Below are positions 2,490-5,862 of a stretch of DNA of 5,862 nt, in pieces (the stretch's first letter is position 1; every line of letters begins with the position of its first letter). Under the pieces are notes generated by a model. The model made no database searches, was not told the DNA's origin, and worked only from the letters and a program-made list of their open reading frames with translations. Source of the stretch: a virus (lineage: Duplodnaviria > Heunggongvirae > Uroviricota > Caudoviricetes); IMG/VR virus record IMGVR_UViG_2671180254_000003; one strand, written 5' to 3'. The position numbers and the translations under genes are program-made.

Positions 2490-3176
2490 ATGACCCCAAT
2501 AAACATATTTATGACAGTTGCTGATTTCAAACGGCCCAAATTGGAGCTCCCAAACGGGGCAAACAAACTACTACTGCACTCTTGCTGTGCTCCATGTTCC
2601 GGTGAGGTGATGGAGGCGCTTCAGGCCTCGGGAATCGACTACACCATCTTTTTCTACAACCCGAACATTCATCCTCAGAAAGAGTATTTAATTCGTAAGG
2701 ATGAGAATATTCGCTTTGCTGAACAACACGGCGTGCCGTTTATTGATGCTGATTACGACACAGACAACTGGTTTGAACGAGCCAAAGGAATGGAATGGGA
2801 GCCCGAACGAGGGATCCGTTGCACCATGTGTTTTGACATGCGTTTTGAGCGGACAGCGCTGTACGCCGCTGAAAATGGTTTCAGTGTGATCAGCAGTTCA
2901 CTGGGCATTTCACGCTGGAAAAATATGCAGCAGGTTAACGACTGTGGGCGGCGAGCCGTCGCGCATTATCCGGGCATGGTGTACTGGGATTATAACTGGC
3001 GCAAGCAGGGCGGCTCGTCCCGTATGATTGAAATCAGCAAGCGCGAAAAATTCTATCAGCAGGAATATTGTGGCTGTGTGTATTCTCTGCGCGATACCAA
3101 TCTACACCGCAAATCTCAGGGACGCCCTCTTATCAAAATTGGTCAACTCCACTACGGTAAAGAAGAGAAGGAGTGA
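2490..3176 (+). CDS. queH: QueH-like epoxyqueuosine reductase family protein (DUF208, Fe-S enzyme)
   Basis: 228-aa ORF with the DUF208/QueH hallmark motifs as recalled from memory: [45 protein letters not shown]. Start could be ATG 2490 or 2511; neither has a clear SD. Confidence 0.8.
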
Positions 3177-3197: not shown

Positions 3198-3227
3198 TTG
3201 ATTTCATATTGGCGAGGTAAGTAGAAT
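3198..3227 (+). promoter_or_regulatory. Putative sigma70 promoter for hok-type transcript copy 1 (-35 TTGATT, 18-nt spacer, -10 TAGAAT)
   Basis: TTGATT 3198-3203 and TAGAAT 3222-3227 place a transcription start near 3234, the start of the tac-like sequence CTGCGGGTGCTTGAGG. Confidence 0.35.
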
Positions 3228-3321
3228 GACTGCGGGTGCTTGAGGCTATCTGCTTCAGGCATGAACACCAAAAGGCAGATAGAGAAAAGCCCCAGTTAAC
3301 ATTACGCGTCCGGCAAGACGC
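3211..3321 (+). promoter_or_regulatory. hok-type mRNA 5' leader, copy 1 (tac-like element plus conserved stem-loop); downstream body lost in assembly gap
   Basis: About 90 nt closely similar to 5355..5460 (CTGCGGGTGCTTGAGGCT...AGAGAAAAGCCCCAGTTAACATTACGCGTCC.GCAAGACGC). Contains stem CTATCTGC/GCAGATAG (3246-3253 / 3275-3282). Runs directly into the N run. Confidence 0.6.
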
Positions 3322-3574
3322 NNNNNNNNNNNNNNNNNNNNNNNNNNNNNNNNNNNNNNNNNNNNNNNNNNNNNNNNNNNNNNNNNNNNNNNNNNNNNNN
3401 NNNNNNNNNNNNNNNNNNNNNNNNNNNNNNNNNNNNNNNNNNNNNNNNNNNNNNNNNNNNNNNNNNNNNNNNNNNNNNNNNNNNNNNNNNNNNNNNNNNN
3501 NNNNNNNNNNNNNNNNNNNNNNNNNNNNNNNNNNNNNNNNNNNNNNNNNNNNNNNNNNNNNNNNNNNNNNNNNN
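3322..3574. other. Assembly gap (253 N)
   Basis: Uninterrupted run of N. ORFs 3236..3577 and 3255..3701 in the track are artefacts of translating N. Confidence 0.99.
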
Positions 3575-3694
3575 TAATTTTTGTCTGGATAATCGGAAAA
3601 ATAATTGAGCCAGTTATTGAATTGTATAACGACGTGGTATGGGCGTCATTCAACACACTGCACAATAAAATTAATCCGTATAAGGAAAGCTGAT

Positions 3695-4060
3695 ATGGCA
3701 CTGACGAAAAAACAACGTGCAGAACTGCGCATGAAGTTCGGTGGTCGCTGCGCTTATTGCGGCTGCGAACTTGGCGAAAAGTGGCATGCAGACCATGTAA
3801 AACCGGTCATTCGTTTTGATGGAAATATGCTTCACCAGGAACGTGACGATATATCCAACATGGTACCAGCATGCCACCCATGCAATCTGCACAAGCATTG
3901 CAGTAGCCTGGAAGATTATCGACGAATTATCAGTGATGGTCGTCGTGAATTCCTTGCGTCCGGGAAAGGCAAAGCGCTGGTTCGTATGGGATTGGTTGAA
4001 ATGAAATCTGACCCGGTTGTGTTCTGGTTTGAAAAATATCAAGAAGGGGCTACGGCATGA
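3695..4060 (+). CDS. HNH endonuclease
   Basis: 121-aa ORF from ATG 3695 with SD AAGGA (3682-3686). HNH motifs CAYCGCEL, WHADHVKPV, VPACHPCNLHK. The track's longer version starts at TTG 3605 with no RBS. Confidence 0.85.
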   Translation: MALTKKQRAELRMKFGGRCAYCGCELGEKWHADHVKPVIRFDGNMLHQERDDISNMVPACHPCNLHKHCSSLEDYRRIISDGRREFLASGKGKALVRMGLVEMKSDPVVFWFEKYQEGATA

Positions 4061-4722
4061 CCACTATTACCAAAGAGCGACTGCAATGGCTGGCTAACAT
4101 TTCTGGCCGCGATGATATTGACGATATAGACGGCGGTGAAATTCGTGAACTGGCGCTTATCGCTCTGGCATCACTGGAAGCAGAGCCTGTAGCGGAATGC
4201 ATTGTTGAAGATGGGGGCATGTGTATTGACGGGTTCGGTGAGTATGTGGGTCACTCGCTGCCTGATGGAATGCATGAGCTTTATGCTGCCCCGCGAATGC
4301 GACAACCTGATGGATGGAAAGCCGTAGCTGTAGCGTGGAAGGTGACGTTTACTCAAGTTGACCAGGAATCTAATACGTTCACTGCTATATATTTTGACAA
4401 AGCGGAAGTTGAGTGTTGGGTACGACTGCATAAAGCATGTGATTTTCGGGCAGATATAACACCGCTTTACGCAGCGCCGGCAGTGCCGGTTGCAGTAAAC
4501 GACGACATGGCTTACGCATTCCATCACGCACTGTCAGATTCATCGCTTGGCTCTGATGAAATCGAAGAAATTAAAACCGGTTTGCGTGCTGCCTTTGCCA
4601 ACGTCACTATCCAACCAGAGCCGATAGTGCCGGATGAAATCGGGCCAAACGATAGTAATACGTTTGATTATGTTGATGGCTGGAACGCCTGCCGCGCTGC
4701 CATGCTTAAGGGAGATAAATAA
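4057..4722 (+). CDS. Hypothetical phage protein (221 aa) with two LYAAP motifs
   Basis: ATG 4057 overlaps the HNH stop (ATGA), indicating translational coupling. Acidic N-terminus; LYAAP at codons 75-79 and again about 60 residues later (nt 4279-4293 and 4465-4479), encoded with different codons. Confidence 0.8.
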   Translation: MTTITKERLQWLANISGRDDIDDIDGGEIRELALIALASLEAEPVAECIVEDGGMCIDGFGEYVGHSLPDGMHELYAAPRMRQPDGWKAVAVAWKVTFTQVDQESNTFTAIYFDKAEVECWVRLHKACDFRADITPLYAAPAVPVAVNDDMAYAFHHALSDSSLGSDEIEEIKTGLRAAFANVTIQPEPIVPDEIGPNDSNTFDYVDGWNACRAAMLKGDK

Positions 4723-5087
4723 TGATTAATCGAACCAAACTGGAGCACATTCTCGAATATGCCAGGCAGCAGAAATGTATTGGGCAACTTTGTAAAATTC
4801 CACCAGGAGATATGGTTGAAATCGTGGAAATGGCCATGCGTAAGGCTGGCAACTCTCCGGTAGCTCCGGCTGGCTGGATAAGCTGTAGTGATGCAGTTCC
4901 TGCTGAATATTGCGATGTGATTCTTCTCGATGATCTCGGGAATGTATTCCCCGGTTCCTGGGATAAGGTTTTTTGCCCCACTCGTGGCGGGAATAAGATG
5001 GCTTTTGTGGACAAAGACGGCGTTGAAGTAGAGAGCTCAACTCACTGGATGCCGCTACCGGAACCACCGCAGGAGGTGAATCAATGA
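4722..5087 (+). CDS. DUF551-family prophage protein
   Basis: 121-aa ORF; start overlaps the upstream stop (TAATG) with SD GGGAG upstream. C-terminal WISCSDAVPAEYCDV...STHWMPLPEPP matches the DUF551 pattern. Confidence 0.85.
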   Translation: MINRTKLEHILEYARQQKCIGQLCKIPPGDMVEIVEMAMRKAGNSPVAPAGWISCSDAVPAEYCDVILLDDLGNVFPGSWDKVFCPTRGGNKMAFVDKDGVEVESSTHWMPLPEPPQEVNQ

Positions 5088-5167
5088 CCTGGCCTGAGGC
5101 ATTCACCACGGTAGGAATTGCGATGGCGGTGGCGCTGGTGGTGTATTCGATTTGCCGTTGGGGTTAA
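5084..5167 (+). CDS. Small hydrophobic peptide (27 aa, MTWPEAFTTVGIAMAVALVVYSICRWG), predicted single transmembrane helix
   Basis: Not in the ORF track (too short). ATG 5084 overlaps the DUF551 stop (ATGA) and is preceded by a strong SD AGGAGG (5071-5076, 7-nt spacing). Stop TAA 5165-5167 is followed within about 10 nt by an intrinsic terminator. Confidence 0.55.
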   Translation: MTWPEAFTTVGIAMAVALVVYSICRWG

Positions 5168-5172
5168 CAAAC

Positions 5173-5203
5173 AAAAACCCCGGATTGATGGTCCGGGGTT
5201 TTT
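5173..5203 (+). terminator. Rho-independent terminator (possibly bidirectional)
   Basis: A5 (5173-5177), stem CCCCGGA (5178-5184) / TCCGGGG (5192-5198) with 7-nt loop, then T5 (5199-5203). Confidence 0.8.
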
Positions 5204-5354
5204 GAAGGAAACAAAACAGAAACAGCAATTGCCGTTACCTGTTGTTACCATGGCAAGTAAACGTATCTCAGGCGAGCGCATTGCGCCGTTCTGACGCAGA
5301 TAAACTAGCCTGGATAGATGGTGCTGGCAATAAAAAATAGCGTTTTCTTATCGG

Positions 5355-5484
5355 TGTCGGTAAGATTGCTGCGGGTGCTTGAGGCTGTCTGCCTCGGGTA
5401 TGTCACTGTAAGGCAGACAGAGAAAAGCCCCAGTTAACATTACGCGTCCTGCAAGACGCTTAACATTAATCTGAGGCCCAATCT
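5355..5484 (+). promoter_or_regulatory. hok-type mRNA 5' leader, copy 2 (putative -10 TAAGAT at 5361-5366, tac-like element 5369-5386, stem-loop 5385-5420, mok upstream region)
   Basis: tac-like CTGCGGGTGCTTGAGG is complementary to the 3' fbi-like sequence at 5749-5764. Stem CTGTCTGCC/GGCAGACAG (5385-5393 / 5412-5420). Leads into the mok/hok reading frame. Confidence 0.7.
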
Positions 5485-5697
5485 ATGTCTCACAAATGTA
5501 GGTTAGCCTCTTACGTGCCGAAAGGCAAGGAGAAGCAGGCTATGAAGCAGCAAAAGGCGATGTTAATCGCCCTGATCGTCATCTGTTTAACCGTCATTGT
5601 GACGGCACTGGTAACGAGGAAAGACCTCTGCGAGGTACGAATCCGAATCGGCCAGACGGAGGTCGCTGTTTTCGTAGACTACGAATCTAGAGAGTAA
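5485..5697 (+). CDS. mok: Mok-like regulatory reading frame (70 aa), in frame with and containing hok
   Basis: ATG 5485 opens the only frame open across the hok start. Length matches chromosomal Mok-type frames (recalled from MokC, which is an N-terminally extended HokC). Whether it is translated is inferred. Confidence 0.5.
   Translation: MSHKCRLASYVPKGKEKQAMKQQKAMLIALIVICLTVIVTALVTRKDLCEVRIRIGQTEVAVFVDYESRE
5542..5697 (+). CDS. hok: Hok/Gef-family type I toxin (HokD/RelF-like small membrane protein, 51 aa)
   Basis: MKQQKAMLIALIVICLTVIVTALVTRKDLCEVRIRIGQTEVAVFVDYESRE shows the Hok family signature (TM helix, LTRK.LCE.R...EVA.F..YES). SD AAGGAG sits 8 nt upstream of ATG 5542. Confidence 0.9.
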   Translation: MKQQKAMLIALIVICLTVIVTALVTRKDLCEVRIRIGQTEVAVFVDYESRE

Positions 5698-5704
5698 GAG
5701 TGAC

Positions 5705-5728
5705 CAGGCGGGAGAGTAATCTCCCGCC
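5705..5728 (+). other. Stable hairpin just after the hok stop (GGCGGGAGA-GTAA-TCTCCCGCC)
   Basis: Perfect 9-bp GC-rich stem with GNRA-type tetraloop; no immediate U-run. Probably a 3' UTR structural element of the hok mRNA. Confidence 0.5.
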
Positions 5729-5743
5729 ACCTTTGATGTGTCA

Positions 5744-5765
5744 GGCATCCTCAACGCACCCGCAC
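5744..5765 (+). promoter_or_regulatory. fbi-like (fold-back inhibition) element complementary to the 5' tac-like element
   Basis: CCTCAACGCACCCGCA (5749-5764) pairs with TGCGGGTGC-TTGAGG (5370-5384): 9 bp plus 6 bp around a single bulge. This is the 5'-3' pairing architecture of hok mRNAs. Confidence 0.6.
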
Positions 5766-5770
5766 TTAAC

Positions 5771-5789
5771 CCGTTTCGGCGGTTTTTTT
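5771..5789 (+). terminator. Possible 3' end of hok transcript (short GC stem plus T7 run)
   Basis: CCG-tttc-GGCGG followed by TTTTTTT (5783-5789). Stem is weak; the IS1 end abuts immediately. Confidence 0.3.
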
Positions 5790-5862
5790 GGTAATGACTC
5801 CAACTTATTGATAGTGTTTTATGTTCAGATAATGCCCGATGACTTTGTCATGCAGCTCCACC
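5790..5862 (-). mobile_element. IS1 insertion sequence, terminal 73 nt including inverted repeat; element continues beyond window end
   Basis: GGTAATGACTCCAACTTATTGATAGTGTTTTATGTTCAGATAATGCCCGATGACTTTGTCATGCAGCTCCACC matches the IS1 terminus as recalled. The minus strand encodes the InsB C-terminus. Confidence 0.9.
5805..5862 (-). CDS. insB: IS1 transposase InsB, 3' end (partial, continues beyond window)
   Basis: Minus-strand translation gives ...VELHDKVIGHYLNIKHYQ followed by stop (TAA, complement of 5805-5807). Confidence 0.8.
   Translation of the reverse strand, partial: VELHDKVIGHYLNIKHYQ

What the first reader, a model, noticed from the sequence alone, without database searches (positions are those of the whole stretch)
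5355..5789. Complete Hok/Mok-type type I toxin locus with tac-fbi long-range pairing in the prophage
A 51-aa Hok-family toxin sits inside a 70-codon in-frame Mok-like frame. The 5' sequence CTGCGGGTGCTTGAGG (5369-5384) is complementary to the 3' sequence CCTCAACGCACCCGCA (5749-5764), reproducing the tac/fbi fold-back that keeps full-length hok mRNA translationally silent. An antisense Sok-like RNA is therefore expected on the minus strand around 5440-5520 (opposite the mok start), but I could not pin down its promoter. The locus may act in prophage maintenance or phage exclusion.
Basis: partly seen in the sequence, partly recalled or inferred. Interest (0 to 1): 0.55.

Follow-up and report, generated by a model that had tools for sequence, protein, structure and literature searches.

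The report
Prophage hok/mok/sok toxin–antitoxin locus

Summary
5542-5697 encodes a 51-aa Hok/Gef toxin (Pfam 6.7e-22). It lies inside an in-frame 70-codon mok frame (5485-5697). The 5' end pairs with the 3' UTR in the predicted minimum-energy fold of the full-length RNA.

Three corrections:
- The duplex is 15 bp with one bulged C (5755); C5369 is unpaired.
- Only 5373-5384 / 5749-5761 is conserved. It is kept in 31-33 of 34 distinct loci, from E. coli to Photorhabdus, Pantoea, Erwinia and plasmid R1, with U:A to C:G and G:C to A:U compensatory changes.
- The antisense RNA lies at 5423-5493 (minus strand), not 5440-5520.

The antisense position maps base-for-base onto the annotated sokW of phage 933W. 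Its promoter (TTGCCT, 17 nt, TAACCT; 5528-5500) is identical to the 933W sequence at the aligned position. The RNA folds as a 14-nt 5' tail, a long hairpin and UUUU.

Deleting the 3' end in silico switches the fold to tac/ucb, as in the R1 model. Rfam RF01794 scores 118 bits against a cut-off of 59.

The locus is 92% identical to hokW-sokW, which has been tested experimentally. It is 100% identical to a Shigella sonnei-type prophage.

New details are minor: IS1 starts right after the terminator, Hok carries a unique T36I, and a second, truncated hok leader sits at 3216-3321.

Verdict: already known, low interest.

The parts
5361..5366 (+). Probable -10 box (TAAGAT) of the hok/mok mRNA promoter. 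There is no good -35, so the promoter is probably weak.
   Evidence: It aligns with the hexamers TAGAAT of 933W and TATGAT of the R1-type locus, read as -10 boxes here, 6 nt before the conserved 5' GGG/GGC. The consensus scan found no promoter at its thresholds. Inferred, not shown.
5373..5789 (+). Predicted full-length hok/mok mRNA (about 417 nt)
   Evidence: The 5' end is set by the start of the Rfam model match and by alignment to the R1 +1 GGCGCUUGAGG (numbering from PMC9841398). The 3' end is set by the U7 tract. The fold has z -6.4.
5373..5384 (+). tac (translational activator element), GGGUGCUUGAGG
   Evidence: Pairs with fbi in the full-length fold and with ucb in the truncated fold. 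The motif is found in 37 of the 39 homologous loci scanned.
5375..5400 (+). Metastable 5' hairpin of the nascent transcript: the tac 3' half pairs with GCCUCGGG immediately downstream
   Evidence: RNAfold of 5373-5400 and of 5373-5410 gives -14.8 and -16.8 kcal/mol. The R1 sequence has the same GAGGC-loop-GCCUC arrangement.
5425..5431 (+). ucb / anti-SD (AAGCCCC)
   Evidence: Pairs with the mok SD region in the full-length fold, and with tac in the truncated fold and in the Rfam consensus structure.
5423..5493 (-). Sok-type antisense RNA (71 nt): a 14-nt single-stranded 5' tail across the mok AUG, a long hairpin, then UUUU
   Evidence: The annotated sokW of 933W (L004 1559-1629, minus strand) maps exactly to 5423-5493. 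The fold is -29.2 kcal/mol, z -5.3. A 71-nt sokW was detected and shown to be antitoxic in Sp5 (PMC8621323).
5500..5528 (-). Sok promoter: -35 TTGCCT (5528-5523), 17-nt spacer, -10 TAACCT (5505-5500); start at G5493
   Evidence: Identical to the aligned stretch of 933W and homologous to R1's TTGCGC-17-TATCCT. It falls below the thresholds of the generic scan.
5473..5476 (+). mok Shine-Dalgarno (GAGG), 8 nt before the mok ATG
   Evidence: Read from the sequence. It is conserved in the 933W and R1 alignment.
5485..5697 (+). mok leader frame, 70 codons, in frame with hok
   Evidence: mokW is annotated the same way.
5506..5510 (+). dcb (GCCUC), which pairs with the mok SD (GAGGC, 5473-5477) in the processed form
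   Evidence: Rfam RF01794 consensus structure as aligned to the window. This pairing was not recovered in the plain MFE of the truncated RNA.
5527..5532 (+). hok Shine-Dalgarno (AAGGAG), 9 nt before the hok ATG
   Evidence: Read from the sequence. It is invariant in the three-way alignment.
5542..5697 (+). hok toxin gene, 51 aa, with the T36I substitution at codon 5647-5649
   Evidence: Pfam HOK_GEF E 6.7e-22. It is 48 of 51 residues identical to HokW of 933W.
5707..5728 (+). 3'-UTR stem-loop (GGCGGGAGA-GUAA-UCUCCCGCC), the likely 3' end-protecting hairpin of the processed mRNA
   Evidence: A perfect 9-bp inverted repeat (I7), present in both folds. Its role is inferred from R1, where mutations in the last stem-loop of the truncated mRNA lose function (PMC9841398).
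5749..5761 (+). fbi (fold-back inhibitory element), CCUCAA-C-GCACCC. Pairing extends to 5764 in this sequence only.
5771..5789 (+). Intrinsic terminator: CCGU-UUCG-GCGG followed by U7. It is weaker than the CCCGC-UUCG-GCGGG of relatives.
   Evidence: It was not called by the scan, which needs at least 5 pairs.
5790..5862 (-). Terminal 73 bp of an IS1 element (transposase on the minus strand). The window ends inside it.
   Evidence: Identical to the IS1 end next to an annotated IS1A transposase in strain PI7. In L060 the IS1 is 768 bp and carries a DDE_Tnp_IS1 gene. It also explains the 81,775 matching places.

Best explanation
The region is a complete hok/mok/sok type I toxin-antitoxin locus of the phage-borne hokW-sokW / 'hokD' subtype. 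It sits in the replication-to-Q ('nin'-like) region of a lambdoid prophage.

Proposed mechanism (steps 1-3 and the structures of step 4 are seen in silico here; the kinetics, processing, toxicity and biological role are inferred from the R1 and Sp5 systems):
1. A weak promoter gives a roughly 417-nt mRNA (5373-5789). Its nascent 5' end is first held in a metastable hairpin.
2. In the finished transcript the 5' tac (5373-5384) pairs with the 3' fbi (5749-5761). This leaves ucb (5425-5431) free to sequester the mok Shine-Dalgarno, so neither ribosomes nor Sok can engage.
3. Slow 3' trimming removes fbi. Tac then pairs with ucb, and the mok translation start and the antisense target are exposed.
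4. While the element is present, the 71-nt Sok RNA binds across the mok start through its 14-nt 5' tail, and the duplex is destroyed. Sok is unstable and is made from its own promoter on the minus strand (5493 to 5423).
5. If Sok synthesis stops, mok is translated and hok translation is coupled to it. The 51-aa Hok inserts into the inner membrane and collapses it.

Most likely role by analogy with Sp5 hokW-sokW: Sok is lost on prophage induction and Hok assists lysis and phage release. Addiction and phage exclusion are secondary possibilities.

The IS1 element begins immediately after the terminator U-tract. It does not touch any element of the locus.
For: Toxin family: Pfam HOK_GEF 6.7e-22.

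Leader RNA: Rfam RF01794 covers the full model, 118 bits against a gathering score of 59.

Folding switch in silico:
- Tac/fbi appears in the MFE and the centroid of the full-length RNA, with the mok SD paired to ucb.
- The fold switches to tac/ucb when 5747-5789 is removed.
- The metastable 5' hairpin forms in the nascent 5' end.

Conservation of tac/fbi:
- The fbi partner lies 45-56 nt after the stop in 33 of 37 loci.
- On 34 distinct sequences the six core pairs are kept in 31-33 of 34.
- Pair 5376:5758 is U:A in 21, C:G in 10 and U:G in 2 sequences.
- Pair 5384:5749 is G:C in 22 and A:U in 10 in the no-bulge register.
- The percentage paired drops from 82% to 35-52% when the partners are slid by 1-3 columns.

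Sok: exact coordinate transfer from the annotated sokW of 933W, a promoter identical to the aligned 933W sequence, and the canonical tail-hairpin-U-tail fold.

Relatives:
- 92.4% nucleotide identity to 933W / VT2-Sakai hokW-sokW.
- For that locus, toxicity, antitoxin activity of sokW expressed from its own promoter, RNase III/Hfq dependence and the role in MMC-induced lysis were shown experimentally (PMC8621323).
- The R1 model and element definitions come from PMC9841398.

Context: prophage genes on both sides.
Against: Nothing contradicts the identification. The caveats concern activity.
- Hok carries Ile at residue 36, where all 38 compared homologues have Thr or Ser and R1 has Asp.
- The hok promoter has no recognisable -35, and no promoter passed the generic scan.
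- The terminator stem is one to two pairs weaker than in relatives.
- The host prophage is IS-ridden.
- Chromosomal hok loci tested in the literature did not mediate post-segregational killing (bioRxiv 10.1101/2025.08.07.668861).
- The dcb/SD pairing of the processed form appears in the Rfam structure but not in the plain MFE.
- No transcript, processing or toxicity data exist for this allele.
Confidence: 0.93

Rival explanations
1. The locus is structurally complete but functionally attenuated or dead. It would be a relic carried in a decaying, IS-ridden prophage, like most chromosomal hok loci of E. coli K-12.
For: - A unique T36I change at a position that is Thr or Ser in all 38 compared homologues.
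- A weak hok promoter and a weakened terminator.
- IS1 abuts the locus, and about 135 bp to its right is deleted in the identical genome, with further IS copies nearby.
- K-12 hokA, hokC and hokE are reported as inactivated by insertion elements (PMC12214031).
- The chromosomal hok loci tested did not mediate PSK.
Against: - Every regulatory element and both reading frames are intact.
- The IS1 lies outside the transcript.
- The exact T36I protein is recorded in 1166 blocks of the assembly collection with no further decay in the six loci read.
- 42 of 45 diverse Hok homologues tested were toxic.
- Position 36 varies across the wider family (Asp in R1).
Confidence: 0.2
2. The locus is active, but its main role is abortive-infection-type exclusion of other phages or addiction to the prophage, rather than assisting lysis on induction.
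For: - R1 hok/sok on a high-copy plasmid reduced T4 plating efficiency and plaque size, as cited in PMC8621323.
- hok genes are about four-fold enriched in prophages.
- Post-segregational killing is the classical role of plasmid copies.
Against: - The closest tested relative increased, rather than decreased, release of its own phage, and it responded to RecA-dependent induction.
- No enrichment of hok next to defence systems was found.
- Chromosomal loci failed PSK tests.
- This prophage looks defective, so neither role may apply.
Confidence: 0.25
3. The 5'/3' complementarity is a chance inverted repeat with no role in folding.
For: Long-flank duplex scans gave unremarkable z-scores.
Against: - The core helix is kept in 31-33 of 34 diverse loci with compensatory changes, at a fixed distance from the stop codon.
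- It appears in both the MFE and the centroid.
- Only 3 of 2000 shuffles reach its energy.
- The homologous pairing has been dissected experimentally in R1.
Confidence: 0.01

Closest known systems
hokW-mokW-sokW of Stx2 phages 933W / Sp5 (VT2-Sakai), characterised by Takada et al. 2021 (PMC8621323)
   Same: - 92.4% nucleotide identity over 5365-5771.
- Hok is identical at 48 of 51 residues.
- mok is in frame with hok and shares its stop.
- The Sok promoter stretch is identical to the aligned 933W sequence, and the 71-nt antisense maps at the same coordinates.
- Same tac, ucb, dcb and fbi.
   Different: - 7 of the first 17 nt of the Sok 5' tail (and of its target around the mok start) differ, so cross-regulation is doubtful.
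- Hok differs by T36I, E50R and K51E.
- 933W diverges right after fbi and lacks the UUCG terminator hairpin seen here.
- In 933W the locus lies near the end of the record among accessory genes. Here it lies between the replication genes and the Q-like antiterminator.
- IS1 abuts this copy.
hok/mok/sok of plasmid R1, the founding member of the family
   Same: - Same order of elements, and the same three-state folding logic (metastable hairpin, tac/fbi with SD/ucb, tac/ucb) reproduced in silico.
- Conserved blocks GCUUGAGGCU.UCUGCCUC, GGCAGA.AGA, AGCCCC, AGG.UAGCCUCUUAC and GCAAGGAGAAG.
- The Sok promoter is in the same place (TTGCGC-17-TATCCT).
   Different: - The Hok protein is only distantly similar. 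HokW, 94% identical to this protein, shares 44% identity with R1 Hok (PMC8621323).
- R1 mok is out of frame with hok: the start codons are 58 nt apart by the paper's numbering, against 57 nt here.
- The R1 tac/fbi helix is GGCGCUU/AAGCGCC without the bulge.
- R1 is plasmid-borne, with a proven PSK role.
hokD (relF) of the E. coli K-12 Qin prophage, and loci that PGAP names 'HokD'
   Same: Close relatives of this locus (93-96% nucleotide identity) are annotated hokD in many complete E. coli genomes. All are prophage-borne.
   Different: Literature summarised in PMC12214031 describes the K-12 copies other than hokB as inactivated by IS elements or rearrangements that remove canonical components. 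From general knowledge, K-12 hokD sits behind relBE without its own leader. Loci L016 and L017 here likewise lack tac. The window copy has the full set.
Rfam RF01794 'sok'
   Same: Full-length match, 118 bits against a gathering score of 59, E 2.6e-27.
   Different: The model matches the plus strand and runs from the tac to the hok AUG. It therefore describes the hok mRNA leader in its processed (tac/ucb) conformation, not the 71-nt antisense itself. The strand of the hit must not be read as the strand of Sok.

Membership tests
[quoted passage not shown] | Small hydrophobic Hok/Gef toxin (about 50 aa, one transmembrane helix, conserved R-K-x-L-C-E motif) | tested here: met
   PF01848, 77 bits against a cut-off of 22, E 6.7e-22, covering profile positions 1-42 of 42. 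The motif TRKDLCEVRIR is present.
[quoted passage not shown] | Overlapping upstream leader frame (mok) with its own SD, starting about 57-58 nt before hok | tested here: met
   ATG 5485 is preceded by GAGG 8 nt upstream. The frame is 70 codons long and starts 57 nt before the hok ATG. It is annotated as mokW in 933W. Translational coupling itself was not testable.
[quoted passage not shown] | Cis-encoded antisense RNA (Sok) with its own promoter, a single-stranded 5' tail complementary to the mok translation-initiation region, and a terminator hairpin | tested here: met
   5423-5493 on the minus strand maps to the annotated sokW. The promoter is homologous to R1 and identical to the aligned 933W sequence. 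The fold is a 14-nt tail plus hairpin plus UUUU, z -5.3. Expression was not testable.
[quoted passage not shown] | Long-range 5'-3' pairing (tac/fbi) that closes the full-length mRNA | tested here: met
   Present in the MFE and the centroid. Conserved position in 33 of 37 loci. Compensatory changes at 2 core pairs, and core pairs kept in 31-33 of 34 sequences.
[quoted passage not shown] | Alternative pairings: the mok SD is sequestered by ucb in the full-length form, and tac/ucb forms after 3' truncation | tested here: met
   Both states were recovered by folding 5371-5789 and 5373-5746. The Rfam covariance model of the tac/ucb form scores 118 bits. The SD/dcb stem is seen only in the Rfam structure.
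[quoted passage not shown] | Slow 3' exonucleolytic processing of a stable mRNA, short-lived Sok, and RNase III cleavage of the duplex | not testable with these tools
   This needs a rifampicin chase with Northern blots. It was reported for R1 and in part for hokW.
[quoted passage not shown] | Membrane-damaging toxicity of the peptide | not testable with these tools
   HokW, identical at 48 of 51 residues, is toxic and localises to the inner membrane. The effect of T36I is unknown.
NCBIfam Hok models (NF007279 Hok subfamily; NF007290 HokA equivalog) | Score at or above the curated cut-off | tested here: not met
   51.7 bits against 73, and 38.1 bits against 89. The protein belongs to neither of those two narrower groups. 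This does not bear on membership of the Hok/Gef family as a whole.
Rfam RF01794 | Score at or above the gathering threshold over the whole model | tested here: met
   118.1 bits against 59, covering model positions 1-157 of 157.

The most novel reading that the evidence does not exclude
In this Shigella sonnei-type lineage the locus has been remodelled rather than merely inherited. IS1 sits exactly at the last U of the terminator, with the next ~135 bp deleted. The toxin carries a lineage-specific T36I at an otherwise Thr/Ser position. A second hok locus with an almost identical Sok hairpin lies 2 kb upstream in the same scaffold. Together these could mean an attenuated or cross-regulated pair of hok modules whose balance differs from the single-copy hokW paradigm. 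Examples would be one Sok buffering two toxins, or read-through into IS1 altering the timing of 3' processing.
Probability: 0.08. Interest if true: 0.3.

Novelty: already known. Interest (0 to 1): 0.1.

Why it matters
It matters little beyond annotation. The value is a precise, element-by-element map (tac, ucb, dcb, fbi, Sok and its promoter) for a prophage hok locus that public annotation lists only as a 'Hok/Gef family protein' CDS. The tac/fbi helix is also reconfirmed by covariation across a set that reaches Photorhabdus, Pantoea and Erwinia. The T36I allele and the flush IS1 junction could be followed up as natural variants for studies of Hok toxicity and mRNA 3' processing.

Tried and rejected
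- The generic sigma-70 scan found no promoter in 5200-5862. Both promoters fall below its thresholds, so they were placed by homology instead. The two terminator-like hits of that scan (5649-5665, inside hok; 5236-5221, minus strand) are not part of the locus.
- RNAduplex between 110-nt upstream and 140-nt downstream flanks was uninformative. Long sequences pair spuriously, with z from -4 to +2. It was replaced by an 18-nt tac probe against the 3' region.
- MAFFT placed the bulged (E. coli-type) and unbulged (Photorhabdus/R1-type) fbi half-helix one column out of register. The helix was therefore counted in both registers.
- I looked in the R1 saturation-mutagenesis paper for data on the residue equivalent to position 36 (D37) and found nothing in the main text.
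- I could not determine what lies in the 253-N run. The flanks match non-adjacent sequence in the reference loci.
- No IS1 target duplication could be found. The explanation is an adjacent deletion.
- The organism name for CP000038.1 (Shigella sonnei Ss046) rests on my own knowledge. No tool output states it.

Full report
**1. What is in the sequence**

The ORF 5542-5697 encodes the 51-aa peptide MKQQKAMLIALIVICLTVIVTALVTRKDLCEVRIRIGQTEVAVFVDYESRE. It matches Pfam HOK_GEF over the whole profile, at E 6.7e-22 and 77 bits against a cut-off of 22.

An ATG at 5485 opens a 70-codon frame that runs into hok in the same frame and ends at the same stop. It is preceded by GAGG at 5473-5476.

Rfam finds one family in the window above its gathering score: RF01794 'sok', 5373-5547, plus strand, 118 bits against 59. 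This model begins with GGGUGCUUGA and ends at the hok AUG. It therefore describes the hok mRNA leader, not the antisense RNA, and its strand should not be mistaken for that of Sok.

**2. The end-pairing**

- 5370-5378 pairs with 5756-5764 (9 bp) and 5379-5384 pairs with 5749-5754 (6 bp).
- C5755 is bulged and C5369 is unpaired.

Folding 5371-5789 as RNA puts this helix in both the MFE and the centroid (-168.9 kcal/mol, z -6.4). In the same fold the mok SD is paired with the C-rich ucb (5427-5431).

Only 3 of 2000 dinucleotide shuffles of the 3' UTR give as good a duplex.

**3. Conservation and covariation**

One scan of species-representative genomes returned 49 loci, from Escherichia, Shigella, Kluyvera, Photorhabdus, Pantoea, Erwinia and others. 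To these I added phage 933W, a Rac-like phage, three E. coli chromosomes and an R1-type plasmid locus.

A tac-like motif was found in 37 of the 39 loci scanned. In 33 of these its best partner in the 3' region lies 45-56 nt after the hok stop.

I then aligned 34 distinct 5'+3' concatenates by sequence only, with the 3' segments taken at a fixed distance from the stop codon rather than chosen by pairing. Results:
- The six core pairs, GGGUGC with GCACCC, are standard pairs in 31-33 of 34 sequences.
- The pair 5376:5758 is U:A in 21, C:G in 10 and U:G in 2.
- In the unbulged register, the pair at the end of the second half-helix is G:C in 22 and A:U in 10.
- Sliding the partners by 1-3 columns drops pairing from 82% to 35-52%.
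The conserved helix is therefore 5373-5384 with 5749-5761, which fits a transcription start at about 5373.

**4. The switch**

Removing 5747-5789 in silico makes the 5' end re-pair with AAGCCCC (5425-5431), which is the tac/ucb stem of the Rfam consensus.

The first 28-38 nt alone fold into a GAGGC-loop-GCCUC hairpin, the metastable structure of the nascent RNA.

These three states are the ones defined for R1 (PMC9841398). One compensatory difference from 933W (G5387:C5418 against A:U) also supports the first stem-loop.

**5. The antisense RNA**

Phage 933W (AF125520) annotates sokW, mokW and hokW. A pairwise alignment maps sokW exactly to window 5423-5493 on the minus strand. It also maps the mokW and hokW starts to 5485 and 5542.

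Upstream on the minus strand lie TTGCCT (5528-5523), a 17-nt spacer and TAACCT (5505-5500). G5493 lies 7 nt downstream. This stretch is identical to the aligned 933W sequence and homologous to R1's TTGCGC-17-TATCCT.

The 71-nt RNA folds into a 14-nt free 5' tail that covers the mok AUG, a long hairpin and UUUU (z -5.3).

Takada et al. showed that Sp5 hokW is toxic. They also showed that the 71-nt sokW, expressed from its own promoter, neutralises it; that mutating that promoter abolishes protection; and that sokW is visible on Northern blots and vanishes after mitomycin C (PMC8621323).

**6. How common it is**

- 110 phage records match, 77 of them over at least 80% of the locus, including the Stx phages at 92.4% identity.
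- 1455 plasmid records match.
- Complete E. coli genomes carry copies at 93-99% identity, annotated 'Hok/Gef family protein' or 'hokD'.
- A 2026 preprint catalogues 44,248 Hok homologues and reports four-fold enrichment in prophages.
- The exact protein of the window is on record in 1166 blocks of the assembly collection.
- Window 3575-5862 is 100% identical to CP000038.1. To my knowledge that record is Shigella sonnei Ss046.

**7. Context**

Upstream genes are an IstB/DnaC-like ATPase, DUF977, a QueH homologue, an HNH endonuclease and DUF551. Downstream, in identical or near-identical genomes, come DUF1367, YbcO and a DUF1133 Q-like antiterminator, followed in the near-identical relative (L001) by tRNAs and lysis genes.

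This is the early-right region of a lambdoid prophage. It differs from the position of hokW in 933W but matches a Rac-like phage record. In that Rac record mok is out of frame with hok, as it is in R1. Here and in 933W it is in frame. This agrees with the finding that mok translation matters and the Mok peptide does not.

**8. What is particular to this copy**

- Bases 5790-5862 are the end of an IS1 element. It starts right after the seventh U of the terminator, so no hok element is interrupted.
- In the identical genome the IS1 is 768 bp and has no target duplication. About 135 bp present in the IS-free relative is missing on its far side.
- Hok has Ile36, where every compared homologue has Thr or Ser.
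- The terminator stem is weaker than in relatives.
- The hok promoter has only a -10-like TAAGAT.

None of these removes a defining element. Together they leave a modest chance that the module is attenuated.

**9. Verdict**

The one missing piece, Sok and its promoter, is now located. The locus is a member of a thoroughly described family, and its nearest relative has been characterised experimentally. Novelty: already known. Interest: low.

Noticed in passing
window 3216-3321: A second, partial hok/sok-type leader lies directly downstream of the QueH gene and is cut off by the N run. It has a -10 TAGAAT at 3222-3227, a tac GGGTGCTTGAGG at 3234-3245, the first stem-loop, ucb, and the start of the Sok hairpin. 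Rfam RF01794 scores 57.6 bits on model positions 1-58. The stretch is 100% identical to L009/L010, where a full hok (…RIRTGQ…YESRK) follows. Its Sok-hairpin part differs from the main locus by one base.
   Followed up: partly
window 3322-3574: A run of 253 N. The sequence to its left continues in reference loci into a hok gene. The sequence to its right starts in the middle of a DUF4014 gene of a different arrangement (L060 1034). In that genome only 106 bp separate the equivalents of window 2428 and 3575. The window is therefore probably a scaffold whose contigs broke at repeats (the hok leader here, IS1 at the 3' end), and adjacency across the gap is not assured.
   Followed up: partly
window 5790-5862; L060 3249-4016: An IS1 end lies flush with the hok terminator U-tract. 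In the identical genome the 768-bp IS1 lacks a 9-bp target duplication (left flank GGTTTTTTT, right flank TTTTGTCTC). About 135 bp of the IS-free relative (L001 6491-6625) is absent on its right side, which suggests an IS1-mediated adjacent deletion.
   Followed up: yes
window 5647-5649: Hok codon 36 is ATC (Ile). All 38 compared homologues have Thr or Ser there (RIR[T/S]G), and the closest IS-free relative has ACC. The effect on toxicity is unknown.
   Followed up: partly
window 5680-5683: The Tyr47 codon UAC is followed by G. To my knowledge, UACG is the sequence context of TadA A-to-I editing. E. coli hokC, hokD and hokE transcripts are reported to be edited, and at the equivalent position 46 the Cys is RNA-editing-coded in those homologues, where it may matter for a disulfide (PMC12214031; preprint). 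Editing at A5681 would give Y47C.
   Followed up: no
window 2490-3176: A 228-aa epoxyqueuosine reductase QueH homologue (PF02677, E 1.9e-65) lies inside the prophage early region. It is annotated as QueH at the same place in several E. coli prophages. This is an unusual cargo gene for a lambdoid replication region.
   Followed up: no
window 5173-5203: A GC-rich hairpin (ACCCCGGA…TCCGGGGT) is flanked by an A-run and a T-run, between the DUF551 gene and the hok locus. It looks like a bidirectional intrinsic terminator that would insulate the hok promoter from upstream transcription. It was not called by the scan.
   Followed up: no
L005 (Rac-like phage MN652886) versus the window: In the Rac-like record mok is out of frame with hok (starts 58 nt apart, different stops). 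In the window and in 933W it is in frame (57 nt apart, shared stop). The mok frame thus flips between close relatives.
   Followed up: partly
L016, L017, L041, L043: Some homologous loci have lost parts of the system. L016 and L017 have no tac motif upstream of hok. L041 and L043 have no fbi partner at the usual place. Several Photorhabdus and Pseudocitrobacter loci carry two hok genes within 600 bp.
   Followed up: no
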